Shown here piece after piece: positions 4,553 to 52,762 of a stretch of DNA of 64,000 bases. The DNA is taken from the NCBI GenBank assembly GCA_963740985.1, contig CAVUGJ010000002.1, positions 4,591,105 to 4,655,104 on the forward strand. Direction: 5' to 3'. This stretch comes from an uncultured Microthrixaceae bacterium (GTDB lineage Bacteria > Actinomycetota > Acidimicrobiia > Acidimicrobiales > Acidimicrobilacustridaceae). The notes beneath the pieces are model-generated. The model had not been told where the DNA came from, did no database searches, and worked only from the letters and a program-made list of their open reading frames with translations. How positions within the stretch are numbered: position 1 is the stretch's first letter; each line of letters starts with the position of its first letter. The translations under genes and the position numbers were made by a program.

Positions 4553-5951
4553 ATGTCCATCGTGGAAGCACGAGGACGAGCCGGGAAACAAGCTGGCCGG
4601 CCAGACCACTCGGTTCGTCCCACCACCCACCGGGGACCGTTGGCTCCCCTCATCGAATCGCTGCTGGGCGCCGATCCGCCCGTCAGGTTCGAGGCGTACG
4701 ACGGCACGCGGCTGGGTCCGCCCGACGCCGAGGCCACCCTGGTCGTCCGGTCACCCGATGCGTTGCGCCGCATCGTGACCGCGCCCGGGGAGCTCGGGCT
4801 GGCCCGGGCGTACGTGGCCGGCGACATCGACTTCGAGGGGGACATCTTCGCTGCTCTCGAGGTGCGCCGCCGGTTCGATGGCGCCCGCATCGGCTGGCGC
4901 CAGGTGCTCGACATCCTGCGCATCGCCGGGCCCTCGGTGCTGCGGCCGCTGCCGGCGCCCCCCGAGGAGATGAAGCCCAAGGGTCGGCTGCACTCGATCT
5001 CGCCGCGACGCCACTGCCGTCTCCCACCACTACGACGTCAGCAACGAGTTCTACGCGCTGCTGTTGGGACCGACCATGACCTATTCGTGCGCGGTGTGGG
5101 ACGACCCCGGCGCCCTGCATCCCGACGGCACGCCCGACCCGGCCGGCCTCGACGCCGCCCAACAGGCCAAGTACGAGCTGATCTGTCGCAAGCTCGGGCT
5201 CGAAGCGGGTATGCGCCTGCTCGACGTGGGCTGTGGGTGGGGTGGGATGGTGCGCCACGCCGCTCGCAACTACGGCGTCGAAGCGGTGGGCATCACCGTG
5301 TCGGCCGAGCAGGCCCGATGGGCTCGGGCCCAGGTCGAGGCCGAAGGACTGGCCGACCGGGTGGAGATCCGCCTGCAGGACTACCGCGACGTGCACGACG
5401 GGCCCTACGACGCCATCAGCTCCATCGGCATGTTCGAACACGTCGGCCGGGCCCGCCTGCGTCAGTACTTCCAGGGCCTCTACGACCTGCTGGCCCCCGG
5501 TGGCCGCCTGCTCAACCACGCCATCAGTCGGCCGCCGAACGAGGGCGAGCGCATCAACCCTCGCGGGTTCATGGGTCGCTACGTGTTCCCCGACGGGGAG
5601 CTCATCGAAGTCGGCTCGGTGGTCACCGAACTGCAGTCCCTGGGCTTCGAGGCTCGACACGTCGAGGATCTGCGCGAGCACTACGCCCTCACCCTGCGGG
5701 CCTGGGTGGCCAACCTGGAGGCCGGGTGGGACGAAGCCGTGGCGCTGGTGGGCGAATCTCGGGCCCGCATCTGGCGGCTGTATCTGGCAGGCTGCGCGGT
5801 GAGCTTCGAGGACGGCGACACGGCCATCCACCAGGTGCTGGGCGTCAAGCTCGACCAGGGCCGATCGGGTTTGCCCCTGCGTCCGCGCTGGGAGCGCTTG
5901 TCCCTCAGCCACTGGGGCGTCGGCAACGACGACCCCATCGTGCTGGTGTGA
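4553..5951 (+). pseudogene. cfa: Cyclopropane-fatty-acyl-phospholipid synthase family SAM-dependent methyltransferase, frameshift near 4998-5006
   Basis: The N-terminal part ...PPVRFEAYDGTRLGPPDAEATLVVRSPDALRRIVTAPGELGLARAYVAGDIDFEGD is in one frame. SHHYDVSNEFYALLLGPTMTYSCAVW...LLDVGCGWGGM (SAM motif) continues in another frame and ends at 5951. Confidence 0.8.
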
Positions 5952-10135: not shown

Positions 10136-11725
10136 TCAGATCACGTAGCGGTCGGCCAGGGCCAGGTCCGCGTCGGCGAAGTTGCGCAGGGCCGGCTGGG
10201 TGGCCACTCGGGGGGTGGTGATCAGCCCGCGGAAGGTTCCGTCGTCCAGGCCTCGTGCCAGGTACTGGTCGATGGCCGACCACTGGACGAGCCACTTGTC
10301 CATGGCATCGTCGCCGCCGGCCTGGGCCGGGTCCGGGATGTCGGCCAGGATGCGGCCGAAGGCCCGCCGGTGCACGGCCAGGGCGTGGGTGCAGGTCACC
10401 GGTCCGCAGGTCTGGAGCCACTGGCATCCGTCGGCCAGGGGGAACTCCCGGGCGTGCACGCACGCGCCCAGGAAGCACAGGTCCCACTCCTGGTCGGCCA
10501 GCTCGCGGGTGGCGCCGGCCAGCACGTCCAGGGTGTCGTCCAGGAACACGGCGTCGTCCTCGAGGACCAACACGTTCTGGTAGCCGCGCCGGTCGGCCTC
10601 GGCGATCATGGCCCGCCACGACAGGGTGCAGCCCCGGTGGTGGTTGTCCGGGGTGGCCACCGCGGGGAAGCGCTCGACGCGCCAGGCGATGTCGAGCACC
10701 GCGTAGCGGTGCTGCGCGGCCTGCCAGCGGTCGGTGGCGTCGTCGAGGTTGAGGGCGAAGATGGCGTCGAAGAAGGAGAACGGGTTGGCCACCTGGCGAG
10801 CGGTCTGATCCAGGATGGCCTGGGGGTCGGCCTCCGGCAGGGCGCCCAGGTGCTGGCGGAAGTGGTCCTCCATGGGGGCGACGTCCCATCCCACCTCCCC
10901 CCAACCCAGGCGGTAGTTGCGGATGCGATCCTCCCAGGTGGGCCGGTAGGGCGGACCGCTGGGCCGGGTGAAGCGGTGAGCCCAGCGCACGTCGGGATGG
11001 CACAGCACCCGCCCGCCGCCCTGGCGGACCTTCTCGTGCAGGTACCCCTCCTCGCCGCCGAACCCTCGCAGTCGGGGATTGAGGCCGGGCCAGGCGTCGG
11101 TGCGGCAGGCGAAGAGCCCCAGTCCCTGCATCCCGATGTCGAAGGGCTCCACGCCGGGTTCGTCGATCCGGGGATCGGTGGCCCACTGCCCGTACATCCC
11201 TCCGCCCCAGGTGCCGGCGAAGTGGGTGCCCACCACGTGGCTCAGATCGTCGGAAAGCAACGGACCCTGGATCAGGTCGCGGCTGTCGGGGTGGCGGTCG
11301 AACCAGTCGAGGATGGCGGCCAGGCCGCCGGGGGCCACCAGCACGTGCGAGTCCACGCAGACCACCACGTCGGCGTCGGCCTGGCGGAAGATGAGGTCGC
11401 GGGCGGCGGTGGACCGGTACCCCCGGAAGGGGATGTAGCGCAGCCCGGGCACCCGCTGATCCAGTCCCTTGAGGTCGTGCGCGGCCTCGCCTTCGGGATG
11501 GTTGTCCAGGATCACGAAGCTGAGATCGTCGGCCACCTCGGGGTGGTACAGGCGGATGGCCTGCACCGTGAACCACACCCCGTCGAAGTCGTCGAAGGTG
11601 GCCATGCCCACACACAGGCGGCGATGGCCGACCGGTGGGGTGGCGTCGGGGATGACCCGGGTGGCCTCGTCGGCTTCGGCCAGCTTGCGGGTGAGCTCGC
11701 CGAGGAGCTGCTGAGCGTTGGACAC
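10136..11725 (-). CDS. Two-domain glycosyltransferase (N-terminal GT2-like, C-terminal GT25-like)
   Basis: N-terminal half: CVGMATFDDFDGVWFTVQAIRLYHP...FVILDNHPEG...VCVDSHVLV. C-terminal half: FDAIFALNLDDATDRW...HRGCTLSWRAMIAEA...VLVLEDDAVF (GT25-like pattern). Confidence 0.7.
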   Translation of the reverse strand: MSNAQQLLGELTRKLAEADEATRVIPDATPPVGHRRLCVGMATFDDFDGVWFTVQAIRLYHPEVADDLSFVILDNHPEGEAAHDLKGLDQRVPGLRYIPFRGYRSTAARDLIFRQADADVVVCVDSHVLVAPGGLAAILDWFDRHPDSRDLIQGPLLSDDLSHVVGTHFAGTWGGGMYGQWATDPRIDEPGVEPFDIGMQGLGLFACRTDAWPGLNPRLRGFGGEEGYLHEKVRQGGGRVLCHPDVRWAHRFTRPSGPPYRPTWEDRIRNYRLGWGEVGWDVAPMEDHFRQHLGALPEADPQAILDQTARQVANPFSFFDAIFALNLDDATDRWQAAQHRYAVLDIAWRVERFPAVATPDNHHRGCTLSWRAMIAEADRRGYQNVLVLEDDAVFLDDTLDVLAGATRELADQEWDLCFLGACVHAREFPLADGCQWLQTCGPVTCTHALAVHRRAFGRILADIPDPAQAGGDDAMDKWLVQWSAIDQYLARGLDDGTFRGLITTPRVATQPALRNFADADLALADRYVI

Positions 11726-12133: not shown

Positions 12134-12403
12134 ATGGCCAGCTCCCCGACCGACCGACCGGTGCGCACCGATGGCCTCGAGATCAACGAGGTGGCCGATG
12201 GACTGGTGGTCTACCAGGCCGCGCCCGAGCGGGTGCACTACCTGAACAACACCGCCGCGGTCGTCTTCGAGCTGTGTGACGGCGCCCGCACCGTGCCCGA
12301 GATCGCCGATGCGGTGGGCGAGCTCTTCTCGCTGACGCGCGCCCCCACGGCCGAGGTCGAGGCCTGCCTGGTGGAGCTGGCGGCCAAGGGGGTCGTGCAA
12401 TAG
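12134..12403 (+). CDS. PqqD family protein (RiPP-recognition-element type peptide chaperone)
   Basis: MASSPTDRPVRTDGLEINEVADGLVVYQAAPERVHYLNNTAAVVFELCDGARTVPEIADAVGELF...EVEACLVELAAKGVV is a classic PqqD pattern (xLNxTAxxIWxLCDG). The part of track ORF 11870.. upstream of 12134 is antisense to the neighbouring gene. Confidence 0.8.
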   Translation: MASSPTDRPVRTDGLEINEVADGLVVYQAAPERVHYLNNTAAVVFELCDGARTVPEIADAVGELFSLTRAPTAEVEACLVELAAKGVVQ

Positions 12404-12414
12404 TCCGCTTCCGG

Positions 12415-13269
12415 TTGCTGTGGCACGAGATCGTGATCGACGTGGACGGGGCAGGCCCCGAGGTGGTCGATCTCGTGCGCTACCTGGTGTCGTCCGCCGA
12501 ACACCCGCTCGATGCCCTGGCCCCCATGCACTACCGCGTGCGTGCCGTCGACCACGGGTGGATGGTGGAGGAGGAGGGGGATCACCTCGAGACGCTGGAC
12601 GATCCCGAGGCGCTGCTCGACCTGCTCTATCGCCGGGTGCACCAGCGGGCCTTCGAGTTGGCGTCGCTGCGAGGCTGGGTACGGCTGCACGCGGCGGTGA
12701 TCGATTTGCGGCCGGACGCCGGGTCCGACCCGGTGCGGCTGGCGCTGGTCGCCCCTTCGGGGACGGGCAAGACCACGCTGGCCTGTCGCCTCCTGCTCGA
12801 CGGGCAGGAGGCGCCGGCCGACGAGAGCACCCTGGTGCGTGACGGCGTGGCGTTGCCCGTGGCTCGCCGGTTCCACCTCAAGCCCGGCCTGGAGGACGTG
12901 GTCACGGGACTGGCCGCCCACACGGTCGGCCTGCCCAGCCTGGCCGACGGGTCGGTCCGGGCGTTCGATCCCGCCGTGGCCGGATTCACCTGGGTGGTGC
13001 AGGAGCGTCCCGTCGATCACGTCGTCCTGGTGGAGCGCCACGCACCCGGGGCATCGGATTCGGTCGCCGCCATGCCCACCTGGCTGGAGCCGACCAGCGC
13101 GGTGGAGGCCATGCCCGTGCTGGTGGATCAGTCGTTCCCCCACCTGGAGCCCACCGGGGAGTTGCTGGCCCAGGTGGCCACCCTGCTGCGCCAGGCGCAG
13201 TGTTGGCGCCTCGGTTTGGGCTCGCTACCCGAGGCCAGCATCCTCCTACGGGATCTGGCCAGCCGCTAG
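12415..13269 (+). CDS. HPr kinase-related P-loop protein (HprK-related kinase)
   Basis: 284 aa with Walker A LVAPSGTGKTTLA in the C-terminal half. Size and context (PqqD upstream, nucleotidyltransferase downstream) match HprK-like kinases of RiPP-type clusters. Confidence 0.65.
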   Translation: MLWHEIVIDVDGAGPEVVDLVRYLVSSAEHPLDALAPMHYRVRAVDHGWMVEEEGDHLETLDDPEALLDLLYRRVHQRAFELASLRGWVRLHAAVIDLRPDAGSDPVRLALVAPSGTGKTTLACRLLLDGQEAPADESTLVRDGVALPVARRFHLKPGLEDVVTGLAAHTVGLPSLADGSVRAFDPAVAGFTWVVQERPVDHVVLVERHAPGASDSVAAMPTWLEPTSAVEAMPVLVDQSFPHLEPTGELLAQVATLLRQAQCWRLGLGSLPEASILLRDLASR

Positions 13270-13357
13270 CATCTCTGGCCAATGTGTCTGAGGCGTTCGC
13301 GCCCAGGCGAGCTGATCTGTTCGGACAGCAAGATTCGTCGAAAGAGGTTGGGTGCAC

Positions 13358-13650
13358 ATGAGCGAGCAGTCGGAAACCGATCCCCTGGGGGGAGACCGCC
13401 GAGCTTTTTGAAGAAGATGGCCGTGGCGGGCTTCGCGGTTCCCGCGGTGGCGACCTTCTCGACCGTCGGCATCGAGGCCGCGTTCGCCCAGACGGCCAAC
13501 GCCTCGGGTACGACCACGACCACGGCGGCCAGCCCGACCACCACCGCCGCCTCCACCACCACGGCCGCGCCGACCACGACGACGACCACCACGGTCCCGC
13601 CGACCACGACGACGACCACGACCACCACCACCCCCGAAATTCCGCGGTGA
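13358..13650 (+). CDS. Small poly-Thr/Pro protein with a twin-arginine signal (about 97 aa once a -1 shift at the T5 run 13405-13409 is applied)
   Basis: ATG 13358 (GAGG 10 nt upstream) gives MSEQSETDPLGGDRRAF, then TGA. Shifting -1 in the TTTTT run gives DRRAFLKKMAVAGFAVPAVATFSTVGIEAAFA|QTANASG... (Tat consensus, h-region, AxA site). The predicted mature part is 53 aa with 29 Thr. Without the shift the ORF starts at ATG 13417. Confidence 0.6.
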
Positions 13651-13687
13651 GGTCGGGCGAGCGCCGAGCTCGCCGTCGACCGGGTTC

Positions 13688-14896
13688 GTGAGCCGCCCGC
13701 CGTCCCAAGCCGTCACCGCGGACGAACGTCAGCTCCTCGCCGCCGCCTTGCACCCAGTCGGGTCGGGCGGCGGCACCGCGTCCGGCCCCGCCTGGCATCG
13801 CCGGGCCTGGGACGGTCCGGCCGGCGCGGGCGCACTGCACCTGGCCGCAGCCCACGATCTGTTGCCGGCCCTGTGGCGGGCCGAGGTGGACCGGGGCACC
13901 TGGACCGAGTTGCCCCCCGACGCCTTCGACGTGGTGCGGACCCGCTTCGCCGGTGGCACCACCCAGCCCGCCCTGCTGGCGCAGCAGGCCCATGCCGCCA
14001 ACCGGGTCCGGGTGGCCGACCTGCTCGACCAGGGCTCGGCAGTGCTCGACGCTCTGGCTGAGGCAGGCATCGATGCGGTGCCGCTGAAGGGGCTGCACGC
14101 GCTCCTTGCCGGCTGGTGGGCCGATCCGGCCAGCCGAGTCATGCGCGACCTCGACGTCCTGGTGGGCGAGACCCAGGCCAACGCGGCCGAGGCGGTGCTG
14201 TCGGGGTTGGGCTACGAGCCGCTGGCTACGGGGCACGACGACTACGGCGACCACGAACGACCGGCTCTGCACCTGCCCCGACGCGACGGCTCCGTCGAGC
14301 TGCACACCGCGCTGGTGGTGTCGCGCTGGCAAGCGGTCCTGCCCGCGTCCGGCGTGCTGGCGGCGGGAGCGCCCCTGTCCACCACCGACGCGGTGATCCA
14401 CTCGATCGCCCACGCCCAACTCCACGACGAGGCGCACCTGCTGGCCCGGCTGCCGTGGCGGGCGCTGCACGAGCTGGCGGTGGTGGCCCGGGGCCCCAGC
14501 GGGCCGGAGGTCGACTGGGATCGGGTACGCCGCCAGTTCACCGCCGTGGGGGCGGTCGCCGCGCTCGACGCCCATCTGTGGCTGGCCATCGACCTCTTCG
14601 CAGCGGAGGTGCCCCGTCCCGCGGGCACGTGGCGCCCCCGTCTGCACCAGTGGTGGAGCGAGACCCTCATGGCCCACCCATCGTGGGCACCGACCTACGA
14701 ATCGGCAGTGTTCGCGCCTCGTGCGCTCTCGGCGCCGCGGATGCGCCAGTTGTACGGCGAGGGCCCGTTGTGGGTGCTGCGGGGCCGGCACGTGACCACG
14801 GCGATGACGACGGCGGTGGCCGGGCGAATCGGCCGGGCCTCAGCCGGCCGAGCTCCAGGCCCTGGTCGACCTGAGCGACATGACCCGCTGAACTAG
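13688..14896 (+). CDS. Nucleotidyltransferase family protein (uncharacterised NTP_transf_5 type)
   Basis: 402 aa. ...GIDAVPLKGLHALLAGWWADPASRVMRDLDVLV...AVLSGLGYEP... matches the DxD/'DLDLLV' core of the PF14907-type family, from memory. Confidence 0.6.
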   Translation: MSRPPSQAVTADERQLLAAALHPVGSGGGTASGPAWHRRAWDGPAGAGALHLAAAHDLLPALWRAEVDRGTWTELPPDAFDVVRTRFAGGTTQPALLAQQAHAANRVRVADLLDQGSAVLDALAEAGIDAVPLKGLHALLAGWWADPASRVMRDLDVLVGETQANAAEAVLSGLGYEPLATGHDDYGDHERPALHLPRRDGSVELHTALVVSRWQAVLPASGVLAAGAPLSTTDAVIHSIAHAQLHDEAHLLARLPWRALHELAVVARGPSGPEVDWDRVRRQFTAVGAVAALDAHLWLAIDLFAAEVPRPAGTWRPRLHQWWSETLMAHPSWAPTYESAVFAPRALSAPRMRQLYGEGPLWVLRGRHVTTAMTTAVAGRIGRASAGRAPGPGRPERHDPLN

Positions 14897-25143: not shown

Positions 25144-25175
25144 CCCGACCAGCCCTTTCGGGCCGGCCGGGAGAG

Positions 25176-25555
25176 TGGAGCTGGAGGGAATCGAACCCTC
25201 GTCCGTCAAGTGGTCACCACCCGTGCTACGACCATTCCCGGATCACGGCCTTGCGGCTGCCGTACCGCCGGGTCAGTGGAGCTTGCGCTCACCGCCTGGT
25301 CTTTCCCAGATGTCAGCGGTCTTTCACGCCGTCAGCGGTCTCTCCCTGCGGTCCTCCACTGCTTCTGTTGCCGGGCGGCAGTGGACAGGCCCCGCGTGCC
25401 ATTGCTGGTCGCAGTGACTCTCTACCGTCTGACTAGGTCAGGCTGCGAGAGCGAACTCGCCATCGGCGGTTCTTTGGGTGCCCCGTTTCAGGAGTCTGAG
25501 CAACTCCGGTCGCACGATGCGGCTCCCGGTCCCAACGTCGAAACCGATCAGCCCC
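25176..25555 (-). ncRNA. ssrA: tmRNA (SsrA)
   Basis: The minus strand starts GGGGCTGATCGGTTTCGACGTTGGG and ends GAGGGTTCGATTCCCTCCAGCTCCA (tRNA-Ala-like acceptor/T-arm; CCA not encoded). The tag ORF GCC GAT GGC GAG TTC GCT CTC GCA GCC TGA encodes ADGEFALAA*. smpB is adjacent. Confidence 0.9.
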
Positions 25556-46303: not shown

Positions 46304-47318
46304 TCACCAGTTGCGGAGGTCGACGGGCCAGGTGTCCACCACCTGGTCGCCTCGGACCACGTGCATCCGCTCGTGGTAGGCCACGGTGGGGTCCACGTGG
46401 CCGGGATGGACCCGGATGCGTTCGCCCACCGACATCGGCGGCTCGCCCCGGCGGCCGAAGGTGAGGTGCTCGTCGGAGCAGAACCACACCTTGTACCCGG
46501 GCGGATCGACCACGGTCGGGTTGCCGTGGTCCATGCCCAGCGCCTTGAGACCCACGTCAGCCACGGCGTAGCCGGCATCGGGGTTGGCCGAGATGACGGT
46601 GCCGGCCAGCGACAGCGCGGCCTCGAAGGGCAGGTCGAGGGCGCCGTAGGCCGTGTCCATGAGCAGGTAGGAGCCGGCCTGGAGCTCGGTGATCCAGGTG
46701 TTGAGGTCCCAGGTGCCGGTGCCGCCACCAGAGATCGACATCGCCGCCGACCGCGGCATGGGCCTGCACCAGCAGGGCCATCGACTCGGCCACGCCGGAT
46801 GCTCGGGCGGCGCGGTCCTCCAGACCGACCAGATGGCCCTCGTAGCCCATCACGCCCCGCACCTCGAGGCCGAGAGCCCGGGCCTGGTCCGCCAATCGAC
46901 CGGCTTGGTCGGGGGGACAGCCGCAGCGGGGAAGGCCGACGTTCACGTCGATGAGCACCTCGGGTACACCGCCGGTGGCGGCGGCGGCGATCGTCTCGGG
47001 GGAGTCGACCGCCACCGTGACCCGGGCGCCCTGGTCGACTAGCGCGCCCAGCCGCCGGGCGTCGAGCACCTCGTTGGCCAGTAGCAGGTCGTGGACCAGC
47101 CCCGCCTCGGCCATGCCCTCCATCTCCCGGATGGTGGCGCAGCAGAACCCGGGGTGACCGGCGTCGGCCAGGTGGCGAGCCAGGGCGGTGGACTTGAACG
47201 CCTTCACGTGCGGGCGAAGGGCCGCGCCGGGCCAGCGGGCGGCCATGGTGGCGATGTTGGCGTCCAGTCGGTCGAGGTCGACCACCAGCGCCGGGGTGGG
47301 GAGCTCGTCCACGCGCAC
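46304..47318 (-). pseudogene. D-serine dehydratase-like / D-threonine aldolase family PLP enzyme (alanine racemase N-terminal fold), frameshift near 46745-46752
   Basis: N-terminal part: MRVDELPTPALVVDLDRLDANI...LRPHVKAFKS (PLP Lys). C-terminal part in another frame: ISGGGTGTWDLNTWITELQAGSYLLMDTAY...RIRVHPGHVDPTVAYHERMHVVRGDQVVDTWPVDLRNW*. Confidence 0.75.
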
Positions 47319-48754: not shown

Positions 48755-48839
48755 GCACCAGTGGCGGAATCAGGCAGACGCGCAGGGTTTAGGTCCCTGT
48801 GCCCGAAAGGGCGTCCGGGTTCGATTCCCGGCTGGTGCA
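48755..48839 (+). tRNA. tRNA-Leu (anticodon TAG)
   Basis: Manual fold: acceptor GCACCAG/CTGGTGC, D-stem GCG/CGC, anticodon stem CAGGG/CCCTG with loop TTTAGGT, long variable arm GCCC-GAAA-GGGC, T-arm CCGGG-TTCGATT-CCCGG, discriminator A. CCA is not encoded. Confidence 0.9.
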
Positions 48840-48853
48840 CTGCATCGGAAGCC

Positions 48854-49440
48854 TCAGTCGAACCACGGTGTTGCGAGGCCGGCGGAGATCACACGGTCGG
48901 CTGCTCGTAGCCCAGCGTCGACGCGGCGTGTCACCTTGGCCAGGGACCGCTCGGTGCGCGTGGCGCGGAGTAGCGAGTCAGCCTGGATTTGCCGCAGCCC
49001 GACAAGGGCGGTGGCGGCGATCGCGGCACGCGGATCGCCCTCCTACGAGGCCGTGACGAGTCGCGAGAGCGGTCGCAACGGCGGTCGTGCAGACCTCCTT
49101 GCGTCCGCTCAGCTGGGCACTGAGGGAGGGCGTCGTTCGAATCAGCTCGCCAAATCGGTGAAGGCCTCCGATCGCCACGGAGTCGTCCCCGTGTCGCGGC
49201 CGAGTCGAGGAGCCGCCGCAGTCGCGATCCAATGCGTCGACGACGGCGATGACGGGGTCGCCGGCGGACTCGCCCACGGCTGCTACAAGCGCCTCCGCAG
49301 CCGGCTCGAGCCGATCGAGGATCAGGGACTCCTTGGTGGGGATGTAGTTGAAGACACATCTTGACGAGGCGGGTCTGCGGGCACCTCGTGTCGATGCTCG
49401 TGCATCATCCAAGAGTCGCGAGACGACCTCGGCGGCGGCT
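48854..49440 (-). pseudogene. TetR family regulator remnant (frameshift near 49030; no credible start codon)
   Basis: ...ARRPASSRCVFNYIPTKESLILDRL... (HTH end / FNYFPxKE-like motif) is in the frame of track ORF 48978..49733. The tail ...DPRAAIAATALVGLRQIQADSLLRATRTERSLAKVTRRVDAGLRAADRVISAGLATPWFD* is in another frame (stop 48854-48856). Confidence 0.5.
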
Positions 49441-49461
49441 GTGAACGAATCCGGCTTGGGC

Positions 49462-50067
49462 TCATCTGCCGACGCTGAGGGCGAGGAGGGTATTGACCGC
49501 AGTTTCGAACGGACGGGTACTCCGTTGCACCTGGGCGAGTAGAAGCCCTCCTTGGAGCGTGGCGAGGAGAGTCGTGGCGAGGTCGTCCGGGTCGATGTCG
49601 GACGGGAGTTTCCCGTCGGCATGAAGGGATCTGAGTCCATCGCTGATGGCGGCGGCCCACTGATCGAATCCTGCCGCGATGAGCGCTCGGGCCTCGGGGT
49701 CGCTCTCGGCGAGTTGACCAACGAGCGAACCAAGTTGGCAGCCGCCTTTCGCTTGGGTCCGCCTCGCTGCGGTGATCACCATGTTCCGCCAGGCTTCGAC
49801 TCCGTTCCCGCTGTCGAGCGCGTGCCGATTGCGTTCGACGATGGTGTCGGCTTGGTAGTCGATGACCGCCTGCACGAGTTCGTTCTTGTCGGCGAAGTAG
49901 TGGGTCATCTGAGACCCGCTGACTCCCGCCGCGGCCCTGACGTCTTCCAAGGTCGCGCCCAACACCCCGCGCTCATGGATCAGGGCGGCGGCCTCCTCCA
50001 CGATCCGTGCCCGGGTGCGCGCCCCCTTGGGCGTGAGTCTCGGCCGGTCACTCGTCTCGTCGACCAT
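49462..50067 (-). CDS. TetR/AcrR family transcriptional regulator
   Basis: ARTRARIVEEAAALIHERGVLGATLEDVRAAAGVSGSQMTHYFADKNELV is a TetR N-terminal HTH; 201 aa. Confidence 0.9.
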   Translation of the reverse strand: MVDETSDRPRLTPKGARTRARIVEEAAALIHERGVLGATLEDVRAAAGVSGSQMTHYFADKNELVQAVIDYQADTIVERNRHALDSGNGVEAWRNMVITAARRTQAKGGCQLGSLVGQLAESDPEARALIAAGFDQWAAAISDGLRSLHADGKLPSDIDPDDLATTLLATLQGGLLLAQVQRSTRPFETAVNTLLALSVGR

Positions 50068-50165
50068 GCATCGATGCTAACAGCGATTCTGGGTTTGACA
50101 ACCCAGTTCCGGACTGTCAGAGTGGGTTTCGAAACCCATTCTGGGACGAGAGGACGACGGATCGC

Positions 50166-50915
50166 ATGACTGACCTAGAAGGCAAGACAGCTCTGGTAAC
50201 GGGCTCGACGAGCGGTATCGGCAAGGCCACGGCCATCGCGCTGGCCGCCCGCGGCGCTCACGTACTGGTAGTCGGACGCGATGAACAACGAGCCAAGGAC
50301 GTGGTCGCCGAGATCGCAGGCAGGGGCGGCAGCGCATCGTTCAGGCTCACCACATTGGGCGACCTCGAATCGGCCCAGGACCTGGTCGAGTGGGCCACTG
50401 AGGCGGGCGACGGTCACGTCGACATCCTCATCAACAACGCTGGCGTCGCCTTGCTCGGACCAAGCAACGCAGCCACCGAAGCAGAGTTCGACGAGACCTT
50501 CGCACTCAACGTCAAGATTCCCTTCTTCCTCGTCGCATCCTTGGCACCGGCCATGGCCGAACGCGGATGGGGCTCGATCGTCAACATCTCCACGATGGTC
50601 GCCAGCTTCGGACAGGCCGGCATGGCCCTGTACGGCGCCAGCCGAGCAGCTCTCGAACTGCTGACGAAGGCCTGGGCCGCCGAGTACGGCGCAAGTGGGG
50701 TTCGGGTCAACGCCGTTGCTCCCGGCCCGACGCGCACCCGCATGATGGAAAGTGTCCCTGACGAGATGGTGAACCAGCTCGCAGCACTGGCACCAGCGGG
50801 TCGCGTAGCTGAGCCCGAGGAACTTGCTGCGGCGATCGTCTTCCTGGCCAGTGACGATGGCAGCTTCGTGCACGGGGTCACGCTTGCGGTCGACGGCGGC
50901 CGGGTCGCGACCTAA
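50166..50915 (+). CDS. SDR family oxidoreductase
   Basis: GKTALVTGSTSGIGKATA and YGASRAAL (YxxxK-like region); 249 aa. Divergent from the TetR gene. Confidence 0.9.
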   Translation: MTDLEGKTALVTGSTSGIGKATAIALAARGAHVLVVGRDEQRAKDVVAEIAGRGGSASFRLTTLGDLESAQDLVEWATEAGDGHVDILINNAGVALLGPSNAATEAEFDETFALNVKIPFFLVASLAPAMAERGWGSIVNISTMVASFGQAGMALYGASRAALELLTKAWAAEYGASGVRVNAVAPGPTRTRMMESVPDEMVNQLAALAPAGRVAEPEELAAAIVFLASDDGSFVHGVTLAVDGGRVAT

Positions 50916-50988
50916 CACCAGCCGTGCCACGGTGACGCGGTGTGAAGACGTAGACGGCGGATCAATCTAACCATCGAGGAGTATCAAT

Positions 50989-51309
50989 ATGAGTGCATAC
51001 GTAGTTGTCGAATTCACGGTCAATGACCCGGAAATGTACCGTGAGAAATACGCCCCAATTGCCGGGCAGACGGCCAAAGCTCATGGAGGTGAGGTAATCG
51101 CCGCCGGCAACTGGGAGGTCCTGCACGGCGATGGGTCGCTCACTTCAGGAGCACTCGTGCGGTTTACCGACGTTGCGACGGCCCTCCGGTGGTACAACTC
51201 GCCTGAATACCAGCAGCTCATCGATGTCCGAAGTGTCGCGATGGATGCCCGCTTCAGGTTGCTTGACGGCATCCCTACGCCCACAGAAGGTGGGACGGAG
51301 TCCGAATGA
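50989..51309 (+). CDS. DUF1330 domain protein
   Basis: MSAYVVVEFTVNDPEMYREKYAPIAGQTAKAHGGEVIAAG...VRFTDVATALRWYNSPEYQQL is the characteristic DUF1330 pattern. Sampled lines here are about 46% GC. Confidence 0.8.
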   Translation: MSAYVVVEFTVNDPEMYREKYAPIAGQTAKAHGGEVIAAGNWEVLHGDGSLTSGALVRFTDVATALRWYNSPEYQQLIDVRSVAMDARFRLLDGIPTPTEGGTESE

Positions 51310-52226
51310 GCGAACTGCCAGGAAAGACCGTTCTCATCACCGGTGCCAACGCCGGGATCGGCAAGGAGGTAGCCCGGCAACTGGCGTCACGGCCCGAGAT
51401 AGCCCGCATCTACTTGGCGTGCCGGAACCAGGATCGGGCGACAACGGCAAAGGCCGAGCTCGAAGCCGCGACCGGCCGCCGGATCTTCGATATCGTTCTC
51501 ATGGACGTCGCCGACCTGGGTTCGGTCCGCGCTGGCCTTGCGGCCATCGACGGATCCATTGATGCGCTGGTCATGAACGCTGGTGTCATTGGCCCGCAGT
51601 CGATGGACTTGACCGCTGACGGGGTCACCATTGTGTTCGCGACGAACGTCCTTGGCCACGTCGTCCTCCTCGAAGGGCTCCTAGCCGAGGGGCGCCTTGG
51701 CGAGGTTGCGGTCTTCGCCGGAAGTGAAGCAGTCAGGGGGGTCCCGAAGTTGCGGATGAAGGGGCCATCGTTCGTCTCAACCTCAGCCGACGAGCTCGCC
51801 ACTGTCATCGACGGCAGCTACTTCGCCAGCGGAAAACCTGACTTCAACCTTGCTTTCGGGCAGGCCAAGTACATTGGCGCCCTATGGATGGGCTACCTGG
51901 CCCGCCAACACCCCGAGCGCCGCTTCATCACCGTGAGCCCCGGCAACACCACCGGCACCCAAGCAGCCAGTGACCTCCCATTGCCGATGCGTATAGCGGC
52001 CAAATACGTCATGCCCACCCTGGGTCTCTCCCACACACTGGACGTGGGCGCGAAGCGACTGGTCGACGGTGTCACCGACCCGACCCTGTCGAGCGGCGCG
52101 TTCTACGCCAGCGCGGCCAACAAGTTGAAGGGCCCCGTGGTCAACCAAGCGGACATCTTCCCCGACTTGGCTAACCCATCCTTTCAGGACCACGCCAACG
52201 AGGCCATCCACCGCTTCGTCACCTAG
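51306..52226 (+). CDS. SDR family NAD(P)-dependent oxidoreductase (retinol-dehydrogenase-like)
   Basis: ATGA overlap with the upstream gene. GKTVLITGANAGIGKEVARQLA and YGQAKYIGAL (YxxxK); 306 aa. Confidence 0.85.
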   Translation: MSELPGKTVLITGANAGIGKEVARQLASRPEIARIYLACRNQDRATTAKAELEAATGRRIFDIVLMDVADLGSVRAGLAAIDGSIDALVMNAGVIGPQSMDLTADGVTIVFATNVLGHVVLLEGLLAEGRLGEVAVFAGSEAVRGVPKLRMKGPSFVSTSADELATVIDGSYFASGKPDFNLAFGQAKYIGALWMGYLARQHPERRFITVSPGNTTGTQAASDLPLPMRIAAKYVMPTLGLSHTLDVGAKRLVDGVTDPTLSSGAFYASAANKLKGPVVNQADIFPDLANPSFQDHANEAIHRFVT

Positions 52227-52367
52227 TGACGTTCGGACTGCTGGGTGTCAAGGGTCTGAGGGGGAGCTGTCCTAGCCGCCGACTCGGTCGAAGGGCTGCT
52301 TGCGGGTTCCAGCGGAGCCTCAGTCGGATTAAAAGCAGTCCCACTAGGTGCATCAAGTCCGGACGCG

Positions 52368-52762
52368 TCAGACCGGGTGCGGGACCTGCGGCACGGGCGG
52401 CGCCGGGGTGAGGCCGTGGCGGGTCATCACCGCCATGAGGGCGCCGGGATCGGGCGGGCCGTCGGGGGACCGGTCCAACGCCTCGGCGATCTCGTGGAAG
52501 TACGCGGGCGTGAACACGCCGGGCGTAGCTACCGAGAGGAACACGCCGTCGACGTTGCCGGCGTTCTCGAAGTCGTGGACCTGCCTCGACCGACGAACAC
52601 CGCATCGCCGCGATGCAGCTGCCGGACTTCGCCGTCGCAGCGGACGGTGAAGGTCCCTTCGAGGACGTAGAGCGTCTCGTCGAACCCGTCATGGCTGTGG
52701 GGGGGAGGGACGAACGCGCCCGCCGGCACCCGGGTCTCGAAGACCGTGGACCGCGCCCGCAT
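52368..52762 (-). pseudogene. Cupin domain protein, frameshift near 52581-52586
   Basis: ...VPAGAFVPPPHSHDGFDETLYVLEGTFTVRCDGEVRQLHRGDAVFVGRG, then a frame change to QVHDFENAGNVDGVFLSVATPGVFTPAYFHEIAEAL...* (stop 52368-52370). The GxxVxVPRGxVHxFxN-type motif is split. Confidence 0.7.

What the first reader, a model, noticed from the sequence alone, without database searches (positions are those of the whole stretch)
13358..13650. The microprotein gains a textbook Tat signal only after a -1 shift in a TTTTT run, and its poly-Thr tail shows internal DNA duplication
SEEN: ATG 13358 reads MSEQSETDPLGGDRRAF and stops at TGA 13409-13411. Shifting -1 inside T5 (13405-13409) gives ...DRRAFLKKMAVAGFAVPAVATFSTVGIEAAFA|Q..., which is the S/T-R-R-x-F-L-K consensus followed by a hydrophobic core and an AxA cleavage site. 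The downstream frame alone (ATG 13417) gives a signal-like peptide with no charged n-region. The Thr tract contains a near-exact duplication CCGCCGACCACGACGACGACCAC (about 13569-13591 and 13597-13619), which suggests replication-slippage growth. INFERENCE: a 1-nt homopolymer deletion (assembly error or phase-variable OFF state) is the most likely explanation. A programmed -1 slip on GCU-UUU-UGA is a less likely alternative.
Basis: partly seen in the sequence, partly recalled or inferred. Interest (0 to 1): 0.65.

Follow-up and report, generated by a model that had tools for sequence, protein, structure and literature searches.

The report
Split gene for secreted threonine-rich microprotein
The two small reading frames are one conserved gene for a 97-residue, threonine-rich exported protein, and the apparent break is one missing T in a run of six, most likely a long-read assembly error and not programmed recoding.

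Summary
ATG 13358 reads 17 codons to TGA 13409-11, and one extra T in the T5 run (13405-09) gives a 97-aa protein with D-R-R-A-F-L-K-K, a 19-residue uncharged core and A-F-A|Q.

The joined frame is the real gene. More than 20 relatives carry the RR motif in frame. Codon differences from close relatives are almost all synonymous (14:1, 16:2).

A short-read contig from another soil sample matches the window exactly over 158 nt, except that it has T6.

The window also has two more single-base frameshifts in conserved enzymes (~5003, ~46736). Sister Nanopore-only MAG loci carry several frameshifts each. The only other T5 record comes from an ENA run that is probably Nanopore too.

Probabilities:
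- Consensus artefact: about 0.68.
- Genuine T6>T5 slippage allele: about 0.25.
- Programmed -1 frameshift: about 0.02, because it is not conserved and has no specific stimulator.

The 30-nt duplication in the Thr tract is real (28/30; P about 0.04) but old. Tract length is identical across about 8.5% DNA divergence.

By-product: this microprotein family always sits beside a GT2 glycosyltransferase. An NTP_transf_5 gene is nearby in most loci, and usually also a PqqD chaperone and an HPr-kinase-like kinase. That makes it a likely modification substrate.

The parts
13340..13348 (+). Shine-Dalgarno-like GAAAGAGGT, 10 nt upstream of ATG 13358
   Evidence: Direct reading. The same GAAAGAGG/AAGGAG element precedes the ATG in the orthologues.
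13358..13408 (+). First 17 codons of the microprotein gene: acidic n-region plus the twin arginines (MSEQSETDPLGGDRRAF). In the window this frame then hits TGA 13409-11.
   Evidence: These codons are conserved in frame with the rest of the gene in all relatives.
13405..13409 (+). T5 run, the site of the one-base deficit. Run X5 has T6 here. Other relatives read GCG TTC CTG or GCG TTT TTG.
   Evidence: It is the only A/T homopolymer of 5 or more in the 64 kb.
13408..13488 (+). Rest of the signal or leader region in the -1 frame: LKK, then the uncharged core MAVAGFAVPAVATFSTVGI (13417-13473), then EAAFA with the predicted cleavage after A44 (13486-88).
   Evidence: Invariant family columns are F26, P29, V31, F34, G38 and A44.
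13489..13650 (+). Mature part, 53 aa, of which 29 are Thr (QTANASG, Thr/Ala/Pro tract, PEIPR), plus stop TGA 13648-50.
   Evidence: The tract length is identical in L011, L012 and L013.
13555..13619 (+). Tandem duplication with a 30-nt period inside the Thr tract (2.2 copies). The exact 22-nt repeat lies at 13568-89 and 13598-619.
   Evidence: 28/30 identity; synonymous-shuffle P = 0.037.
13651..13680 (+). Stem-loop just after the stop codon (core GGCGAGC-N5-GCTCGCC, 13656-74). The stem is conserved and the loop varies among relatives.
   Evidence: window, L002, L003, L011, L012; z-scores -1.0 to -2.8.
12134..12403 (+). PqqD-family peptide chaperone (RRE-type), 89 aa
   Evidence: PF05402, E = 6.5e-8. 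TIGR04353 scores 22.8 bits, below its cutoff. Syntenic in the related loci.
12415..13269 (+). HPr-kinase-like / ScmC-like P-loop kinase, 284 aa
   Evidence: TIGR04352 HprK_rel_A scores 35.9 bits, far below its cutoff of 200. Homologues carry precomputed PF27840 (ScmC) and PF07475. The sequence contains the Walker A motif GTGKTT.
13688..14896 (+). NTP_transf_5 nucleotidyltransferase-fold protein, 402 aa
   Evidence: PF14907, E = 1.5e-20. Syntenic in most related loci; absent from the held stretch of L014.
10136..11725 (-). Two-domain glycosyltransferase (GT2, with a weak GT25 match), 529 aa, divergently transcribed
   Evidence: Conserved next to the cassette.

Best explanation
There is one gene here, not two. 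It encodes a 97-aa preprotein:
- an acidic n-region;
- D-R-R-A-F-L-K-K;
- a 19-residue uncharged core;
- A-F-A|Q;
- a 53-aa mature peptide that is 55% threonine.

In the organism the codons read GCT TTT TTG (T6). The window shows T5 because one T was dropped when the long-read (Nanopore-only) consensus was built. The break is therefore an artefact, and the protein is made by ordinary translation from ATG 13358.

Shown:
- The joined frame is the one under purifying selection.
- All relatives are in frame.
- A T6 version of this exact sequence exists in short-read data.
- The window holds other single-base frameshifts.

Inferred:
- The window comes from a Nanopore-only assembly.
- The second T5 record is not technologically independent.
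- The N-terminus works as a Tat signal.
- The peptide is modified in the cytoplasm by the neighbouring glycosyltransferase, nucleotidyltransferase-fold protein and kinase, and is then exported.
For: 1. In-frame DRRAFLKK (or RRxF) occurs in L002-L010, L011-L013, L014-L016, P0062-P0064, and contigs of runs X12, X16, X17 and X18.

2. Over the first 51 codons of the joined frame, the window differs from L002 by 14 synonymous and 1 non-synonymous codon, and from L003 by 16 and 2. L012's gene DNA is 269/294 identical, yet its protein differs by one residue.

3. Run X5 has a 159-nt contig at depth 2.6 that covers 13274-13431 with 0 mismatches and one extra T. Its study is Illumina: contigs are 151 nt, and I recognise the sequence at the ends of an X3 contig as Nextera adapter.

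4. The window has two more single-base frameshifts in conserved genes, at ~5003 (CMAS methyltransferase) and ~46736 (D-Ser-dehydratase-like). Relatives lack the extra base, and removing it restores full-length Pfam domains.

5. Sister long-read loci carry several frameshifts within a few kb: L002 in GT2, the kinase and the Thr tail; L006 in NTP_transf_5 and the tail; L011 in GT2, the kinase, NTP_transf_5 and pirin. None of the seven short-read or JGI loci I translated (L005, L007-L010, L012, L013) is broken.

6. The MFD long-read MAGs are Nanopore-only with one round of Medaka. The ENA project holds the Nanopore data, while the project's short reads are at NCBI.
Against: - L001, a Logan contig of run ERR10755946, is 99.9% identical to window 12232-14478, differs at two SNPs (13719, 14102) and also has T5. 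If that run is Illumina, or comes from another sample, T5 is real. I could not establish its platform.
- The T6 observation rests on one contig at depth 2.6.
- R10.4.1 super-accurate reads usually-mers correctly, so a majority T5 call would need low coverage or a context-specific error.
- Over roughly 8-9 kb of same-strain short-read overlap, the T run is the only indel difference. The window is therefore not generally poor.
Confidence: 0.68

Rival explanations
1. T5 is a genuine allele. Slipped-strand mispairing shortened the lineage-specific T6 run (GCT TTT TTG), so this strain carries a null or strongly reduced copy of the microprotein gene, while sister cells in other soils carry T6. This may be a plain loss-of-function polymorphism, or a low-rate reversible ON/OFF switch.
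For: - T5 appears in two records that differ at two SNPs, and T6 appears in a third.
- The run is the only A/T homopolymer of 5 or more in 64 kb, so it is the most slippage-prone site.
- The window matches same-strain short-read contigs everywhere else.
Against: - Platform is confounded: both T5 records are probably Nanopore-derived (inference).
- Relatives have no homopolymer here; they read GCG TTC CTG. No conserved contingency tract exists.
- By my recollection, 5-6 nt is short for classical phase variation.
- The gene is under strong purifying selection.
- Two other frameshifts in the same window look like errors.
Confidence: 0.25
2. Programmed -1 ribosomal frameshift. With UGA in the A site, P-site tRNA-Phe slips from UUU (13406-08) to UUU (13405-07). 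UUG is then read and the full Tat preprotein is made from a T5 mRNA.
For: - Perfect re-pairing is possible on C-UUU-UUG-A, and the product would be exactly the orthologous sequence.
- An SD-like GGGGGGAG ends 10 nt upstream of the run.
- A 90-nt fold starting 8 nt downstream scores z = -2.25.
Against: - It is not conserved. All relatives encode the protein in one frame, several with no slippery run at all.
- The T6 contig from X5 has identical flanks, including the SD-like element, so those elements did not evolve for recoding.
- In-frame orthologues fold as well or better (z = -2.2 and -2.5), while the 60 nt immediately downstream score z = +0.4.
- The 17-aa zero-frame product has no evident function.
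Confidence: 0.02
3. This reading is conditional on T5 being real. The allele is not dead. Ribosomes terminating at TGA 13409-11 restart at the overlapping TTG 13408-10 (TTGA) and make MKKMAVAGF...AFA|Q. That product is a Sec-type signal in place of the Tat-type one, so one base in the T run would switch the export route.
For: - The TTG is in frame and overlaps the stop codon.
- The product has a KK n-region, the same hydrophobic core and the same AxA site.
Against: - There is no evidence that TTG is used.
- The nearest SD-like GGAG ends 13 nt upstream, a poor spacing.
- This product would lose the n-region residues that are invariant in the family (S2, R14, R15, F17).
- It depends on T5 being genuine.
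Confidence: 0.03

Closest known systems
Twin-arginine (Tat) signal peptides (S/T-R-R-x-F-L-K consensus; TIGR01409; small Tat targets such as TIGR02811 formate_TAT)
   Same: - R-R-A-F-L-K at residues 14-19.
- A long acidic n-region.
- A weakly hydrophobic, Gly/Thr-containing 19-residue core.
- An A-x-A cleavage site.
- Weak profile matches: TIGR02811 22 bits (E = 1.5e-4) and TIGR01409 12.3 bits.
   Different: - D, not S/T, precedes RR.
- Both profile scores fall below the curated cutoffs.
- The 'signal' is the most conserved part of the protein across the family, which is unusual for signal peptides.
- The cargo is a 53-aa low-complexity peptide, not a folded cofactor protein.
Homopolymer indel errors in Nanopore-only assemblies
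   Same: - The one-base deficit lies in the longest A/T run of the window.
- Other single-base frameshifts occur in the same window and in sister Nanopore-only MAGs.
- Short-read data show the longer run.
   Different: - The run is only 6 nt, within the range R10.4.1 usually resolves.
- A second record shares T5.
Phase-variable contingency genes (homopolymer tracts in surface or secreted protein genes)
   Same: - A homopolymer lies early in the ORF of an exported protein.
- T5 and T6 are both seen among near-identical sequences.
   Different: - The tract is short and lineage-specific.
- It is absent from relatives.
- The observed variation is confounded with sequencing platform.
Programmed -1 frameshift sites (dnaX A-AAA-AAG with an upstream SD and a downstream hairpin; IS element transposases)
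   Same: - A slippery run that allows re-pairing.
- An SD-like element about 10 nt upstream.
- A GC-rich fold downstream.
   Different: - No conservation of the shift.
- No specific stimulator.
- No use for the zero-frame product.
Peptide-modifying HPr-kinase homologue plus nucleotidyltransferase pairs (paeninodin PadeK; pseudomycoidin PsmK/PsmN) and the HPr-rel-A and SynChlorMet (ScmC) cassettes
   Same: - The cassette holds a PqqD chaperone, an HPr-kinase-like P-loop kinase and an NTP_transf_5 protein around a small peptide gene.
- In lasso systems the kinase phosphorylates a Ser hydroxyl, and the nucleotidyltransferase adds hexose to that phosphate (PMC8498205).
   Different: - No lasso cyclase or protease genes were seen in the flanks examined.
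- The peptide has a Tat-like N-terminus and a poly-Thr core with no conserved C-terminal Ser.
- The TIGR04352 and TIGR04353 scores are far below their cutoffs.
- One branch of the family (L017-L019) lacks the PqqD and kinase genes.
Serine-rich repeat glycoproteins of Gram-positive bacteria (glycosylated in the cytoplasm, exported by the accessory Sec system). This comparison is from my own knowledge.
   Same: An exported protein rich in hydroxy-amino acids, encoded next to soluble glycosyltransferases. This fits modification before export and a need for a special export route.
   Different: - It is tiny (53-aa mature peptide).
- It is rich in Thr, not Ser.
- It has a Tat-type rather than an aSec signal.
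- No cell-wall anchor was seen.
- The glycosylation itself is untested.

Membership tests
Tat signal peptide | Twin-arginine consensus (S/T)-R-R-x-F-L-K within about the first 35 residues | tested here: met
   The joined frame has D-R-R-A-F-L-K at residues 13-19. R14, R15 and F17 are invariant in the 9-sequence alignment. RR.FLK occurs nowhere else in the six-frame translation of the window.
Tat signal peptide | Uncharged, moderately hydrophobic h-region of at least 13 residues, followed by an A-x-A signal peptidase I site | tested here: met
   MAVAGFAVPAVATFSTVGI is 19 residues with mean Kyte-Doolittle hydropathy 1.75. It is followed by A-F-A|Q at residues 42-45.
Tat signal peptide | Score above the curated cutoff of the TIGR01409 TAT_signal_seq profile (or a TatP/SignalP call) | tested here: not met
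   12.3-12.8 bits against a cutoff of 16.7. TIGR02811 scores 22 bits against 48.45. No Pfam Tat-signal model matched at a meaningful E-value. TatP and SignalP are not among the tools.
Tat signal peptide | Export depends on TatABC and on the RR pair | not testable with these tools
   This needs RR>KK mutants and a tat deletion in a surrogate host.
Programmed -1 ribosomal frameshift | Slippery sequence that lets the P-site (and A-site) tRNA re-pair in the -1 frame | tested here: met
   On GC-UUU-UUG-A, tRNA-Phe can move from UUU 13406-08 to UUU 13405-07.
Programmed -1 ribosomal frameshift | The two-frame arrangement is conserved in orthologues | tested here: not met
   All relatives encode one continuous ORF.
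Programmed -1 ribosomal frameshift | A stimulatory element specific to the shifting gene | tested here: not met
   The window's fold scores z = -2.25. In-frame orthologues L004 and L005 score -2.22 and -2.54. The proximal 60 nt score z = +0.40.
Phase-variable contingency locus | Tract length varies within a population independently of sequencing platform | tested here: inconclusive
   The window and L001 show T5 and X5 shows T6. However, the T5 records are probably Nanopore-derived and the T6 record is Illumina.
Phase-variable contingency locus | The repeat tract is maintained among related strains or species | tested here: not met
   The closest relatives read GCG TTC CTG (L002, L003, L011-L013).
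HPr-rel-A system (TIGR04352 kinase plus TIGR04353 PqqD) | Kinase and PqqD score above the equivalog cutoffs | tested here: not met
   HprK_rel_A scores 35.9 bits against 200, and PqqD_rel_X scores 22.8 against 35. The proteins are related to this system but are not members.
RiPP-type precursor peptide | A small ORF next to a PqqD/RRE protein and tailoring enzymes, with a conserved leader and a variable core | tested here: met
   The microprotein follows PqqD and the kinase in L002-L004 and L006-L016 (L005 is cut off upstream). GT2 is adjacent wherever the flank is held, and NTP_transf_5 is present in most. The N-terminal 51 residues are conserved, while the tail is conserved only in composition. 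Exception: L017-L019 lack PqqD and the kinase.
RiPP-type precursor peptide | Demonstrated post-translational modification and leader removal | not testable with these tools
   This needs expression and mass spectrometry.

The most novel reading that the evidence does not exclude
The microprotein is the dedicated substrate of a previously undescribed peptide-modification system of Acidimicrobiia. Under this reading:
- Its unusually conserved twin-arginine N-terminus serves both as the leader recognised by the PqqD chaperone and as the Tat export signal.
- The poly-Thr core is phosphorylated and/or glycosylated in the cytoplasm by the HPr-kinase-like kinase, the NTP_transf_5 protein and the GT2 glycosyltransferase.
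- The bulky product then leaves through Tat. That would make it a Tat-routed counterpart of phosphoglycosylated lasso peptides and of serine-rich repeat glycoproteins.

A rarer add-on is that T5 is genuine, and one base in the T run toggles the gene off or shifts export from Tat to Sec.
Probability: 0.4. Interest if true: 0.6.

Novelty: new member of a known kind. Interest (0 to 1): 0.27.

Why it matters
As posed, the finding is mostly a caution. A textbook motif that appears only after a frame shift points here to a one-base consensus error, or to a trivial slippage allele, in a long-read MAG. It does not point to recoding. Three such breaks in 64 kb show that single-base frameshifts in this kind of assembly should be checked against short reads before any biological reading.

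The useful by-product is the gene itself. It belongs to an unannotated, strongly conserved family of Tat-type, threonine-rich microproteins that sits beside a GT2 glycosyltransferase, usually an NTP_transf_5 protein, and usually a PqqD chaperone and an HPr-kinase-like kinase. This offers a concrete candidate substrate for a class of cassettes (HPr-rel-A / ScmC-like) for which I know of no identified peptide. It is also a testable case of cytoplasmic peptide modification followed by Tat export.

Tried and rejected
- **Protein search with the corrected 51-aa N-terminus.** It found no candidate even though family members exist. This is a limit of the word index, not evidence of absence.
- **Exact-product look-ups.** I tried the NTP_transf_5 gene, the GT2 gene and the frameshifted enzyme ORFs. 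None is on record, so I could not test whether ERR10755946 reproduces the other two frameshifts.
- **Platform of ERR10755946.** Paper and supplement searches and a NANOPORE-filtered run search gave nothing.
- **More same-strain reads over the T run.** X2's contig stops at 13396. X28, X32, X8 and X9 have no coverage there. X4's contig begins at 13409 and was not recovered on the narrower stretch.
- **PRF stimulator search.** The folds are not specific to the window. Rejected.
- **Promoter and terminator scan of 11.7-15 kb.** Nothing found.
- **rRNA operon guess for 49-52.7 kb.** I proposed this from the high depth, but Rfam shows no rRNA there.
- **GC3 and codon-usage frame scan.** The output was noisy. 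Only candidates confirmed by Pfam and by relatives were kept.
- **Transcriptional slippage.** Set aside without a test, because from my own knowledge a run of five T is too short.

Full report
**1. The observation**

- ATG 13358 opens a 17-codon frame, MSEQSETDPLGGDRRAF, which ends at TGA 13409-11.
- The run 13405-09 is T5.
- Reading one base back, or adding one T, continues LKKMAVAGFAVPAVATFSTVGIEAAFAQTANASG, followed by a Thr-rich tail, to TGA 13648-50. The total is 97 aa.

The joined N-terminus has these features:
- R-R-A-F-L-K at residues 14-19;
- a 19-residue uncharged core with mean hydropathy 1.75;
- A-F-A|Q.

The motif RR.FLK occurs nowhere else in about 128,000 six-frame codons of the window. 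It is therefore unlikely to be a chance match at the joint.

A GAAAGAGGT Shine-Dalgarno-like element lies 10 nt upstream of ATG 13358. The same element is conserved in relatives.

Minor corrections:
- The residue before RR is D.
- The first copy of the duplication is at 13567-89.

The duplication is a tandem repeat with a 30-nt period (13555-13619). It scores 28/30, with an exact 22-mer at 13568-89 and 13598-619. A synonymous-codon shuffle reaches that length in 3.7% of trials.

**2. The joined frame is the gene**

Searches with neighbouring proteins and with a DNA pattern recovered orthologous loci.

| Source | Loci |
|---|---|
| GTDB genomes (Microthrixaceae, Acidimicrobiaceae, other Acidimicrobiales MAGs) | L002-L007 |
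| JGI metagenomes | L008-L010, L012, L013, L017-L019 |
| ENA assemblies | L011, L014 |
| An NCBI genome and a Logan contig | L015, L016 |

- Every one of these encodes the RR motif in frame with the hydrophobic core.
- Short contigs of relatives in runs X12, X16, X17 and X18 also carry the extra base.

The selection signal is strong. Over the first 51 codons of the joined frame:
- the window differs from L002 by 14 synonymous and 1 non-synonymous codon;
- it differs from L003 by 16 synonymous and 2 non-synonymous codons.

L012's gene DNA is 91.5% identical, yet its protein differs only in the last residue. The Thr tract has exactly the same length. The gene is therefore real and strongly constrained. 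The tract duplication is old and not actively expanding.

**3. What happened at the T run**

- Close relatives read GCG TTC CTG.
- A more distant clade reads GCG TTT TTG or TTA.
- In run X5, a soil metagenome, a 159-nt contig at depth 2.6 covers 13274-13431. It has no mismatch and one extra T, so it reads GCT TTT TTG, i.e. T6.

That run's study is Illumina. Its contigs are 151 nt. I recognise the sequence at the ends of an X3 contig as Nextera adapter.

The window's lineage therefore carries a T6 run, and the window is one T short of it. T5 at 13405 is the only A/T homopolymer of 5 or more in the 64 kb.

**4. Artefact or allele?**

*Evidence for an artefact*

(a) The window holds two more single-base frameshifts in conserved enzymes.
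- One is an extra base at ~5003 in a CMAS-type methyltransferase.
- The other is an extra base at ~46736 in a D-Ser-dehydratase-like gene.
- Relatives in short-read data lack these bases.
- Removing them restores full-length Pfam domains.

(b) Sister long-read loci each carry several frameshifts within a few kb.
- L002 is broken in GT2, the kinase and the Thr tail.
- L006 is broken in NTP_transf_5 and twice in the tail.
- L011 is broken in GT2, the kinase, NTP_transf_5 and pirin.
- None of the seven short-read or JGI loci I translated (L005, L007-L010, L012, L013) is broken.

(c) The Microflora Danica long-read MAGs, to which those sister loci belong, are Nanopore-only. They were polished with one round of Medaka (PMC12313526).

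*Evidence for a real allele*
- L001 is a Logan contig of run ERR10755946. It is 99.9% identical to window 12232-14478, differs at two SNPs and also has T5.
- The paper's data statement places the Nanopore data in the ENA project and the project's short reads at NCBI. An ERR run holding this strain is therefore probably Nanopore. That is an inference; I could not verify it.
- Over about 8-9 kb where same-strain short-read contigs overlap the window, the T run is the only indel difference.

*Weighing*

| Reading | Probability |
|---|---|
| Consensus artefact | about 0.68 |
| Genuine T6>T5 slippage allele | about 0.25 |
| Tat-to-Sec switch through TTG 13408 | about 0.03 |
| Programmed -1 frameshift | about 0.02 |

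**5. Programmed recoding**

The site would allow a P-site slip: UUU to UUU, with UGA waiting in the A site. An SD-like GGGGGGAG ends 10 nt upstream. Three observations argue against recoding:
- The two-frame layout is unique to this sequence.
- The T6 contig has the same flanks.
- The downstream fold scores z = -2.25, which in-frame orthologues match at -2.2 and -2.5. The proximal 60 nt score z = +0.4.

If T5 were genuine, two things could follow. Some leaky slippage might occur. Alternatively, ribosomes might restart at the overlapping TTG 13408 (TTGA), giving MKKMAVAGF..., a Sec-type signal. Neither is supported by any evidence.

**6. What the gene is**

*The family.* It is small and unannotated.
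- An exhaustive profile-free search with the 77-aa ORF found four 50%-identity clusters.
- The JGI records name the neighbouring kinase only as a hypothetical protein.
- Members share S2, R14, R15, F17, F26, P29, V31, F34, G38, A44, S50 and G51. After that, only a Thr/Ser/Pro/Ala-rich composition is shared.
- The N-terminal 'signal' is thus the most conserved part. That is typical of RiPP leaders and unusual for signal peptides.

*The Tat profiles.* TIGR01409 scores 12.3 bits against a cutoff of 16.7. TIGR02811 scores 22 bits, also below its cutoff. The Tat assignment therefore rests on the motif and the layout.

*The neighbourhood.*
- The gene sits directly after a PqqD chaperone and an HPr-kinase/ScmC-like P-loop kinase in L002-L004 and L006-L016. 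L005 is cut off just upstream, so its neighbours are not visible.
- A GT2 glycosyltransferase lies beside it wherever the flank is held. An NTP_transf_5 protein is present in most loci. L014 instead shows GT2 and a methyltransferase downstream.
- L017-L019 keep only the microprotein, GT2-TPR and NTP_transf_5.
- L004 carries two tandem copies.
- A conserved stem-loop follows the stop codon.

*Proposed mechanism.* In lasso-peptide systems an HPr-kinase homologue phosphorylates a Ser hydroxyl. A nucleotidyltransferase-fold enzyme then adds hexose to that phosphate (PMC8498205). By analogy, I infer that the Thr tract is modified in the cytoplasm and the product is exported by Tat. This is inference only.

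*Family membership.* The kinase and the PqqD protein score far below the HPr-rel-A equivalog cutoffs. I file them as related to that system, not as members.

**7. Verdict**

- The break itself is ordinary and probably not a feature of the organism.
- The gene and its cassette are a new member of known kinds: a Tat-type small secreted protein in a RiPP-like tailoring cassette. They are worth a modest follow-up.

Noticed in passing
window 4553-5951 (+), break at ~5003: A CMAS-type (cyclopropane fatty-acyl / mycolic acid synthase) methyltransferase gene is split by one extra base in CGCCGCG. A 98.7%-identical short-read contig (run X1) lacks that base. Removing it gives 465 aa with a full PF02353 domain.
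   Followed up: yes
window 46304-47318 (-), break at ~46735-46737: A D-serine-dehydratase-like gene (Ala_racemase_N plus D-ser_dehydrat) is split by one extra base. Relatives in runs X1 and X19 lack it. Removing it gives a 340-aa stop-to-stop reading frame (start codon not assigned) with both domains complete.
   Followed up: yes
window 4994-5001 and 46731-46738: Both extra-base frameshifts lie in or next to the 8-mer TCGATCTC, which occurs only 9 times in 64 kb. This may be a context- or methylation-linked basecalling error (GATC is very frequent here, 456 sites), or a coincidence.
   Followed up: partly
L002 (450-3990), L006 (3518-5033), L011 (1365-6591): These long-read-type assemblies of relatives carry several frameshifts within a few kb: L002 in GT2, the kinase and the Thr tail; L006 in NTP_transf_5 and the Thr tail; L011 in GT2, the kinase, NTP_transf_5 and pirin. 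The short-read or JGI loci I translated are intact.
   Followed up: partly
L004 3129-3410 and 3538-3816: The microprotein gene is present as two tandem copies. The first 51 codons encode identical residues, while the C-termini differ slightly (LPIPG against LPIPT).
   Followed up: partly
window 13651-13680; L002, L003, L011, L012 equivalents: A conserved stem-loop (GGCGAGC...GCTCGCC, with a variable loop) lies between the microprotein stop codon and the NTP_transf_5 start. It could be an attenuator or an mRNA-stabilising hairpin of the kind seen after RiPP precursor genes.
   Followed up: partly
L017-L019 (microprotein at L017 4001-4342): A distant branch of the family keeps the microprotein, GT2-TPR and NTP_transf_5 but has no PqqD or kinase upstream (SurE sits there instead). 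GT2 and NTP_transf_5 may therefore be the core partners.
   Followed up: no
window 48755-48839 and 49000-52500: A tRNA gene is followed by a stretch of lower GC (0.61-0.67 against 0.70) that encodes a TetR regulator and two SDR oxidoreductases. Short pieces of it recur at 98% identity or more, and at high depth, in several soil metagenomes. It may be an acquired island. It is not an rRNA operon.
   Followed up: partly
window 25173-25555 (-): A full-length tmRNA gene (Rfam RF00023, 66.7 bits).
   Followed up: no
window 13405-13409: This T5 run is the only A/T homopolymer of 5 or more in the whole 64-kb window. Apart from it, only three G7 or C7 runs turned up in the scan (A/T runs of 5 or more, G/C runs of 7 or more).
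   Followed up: yes
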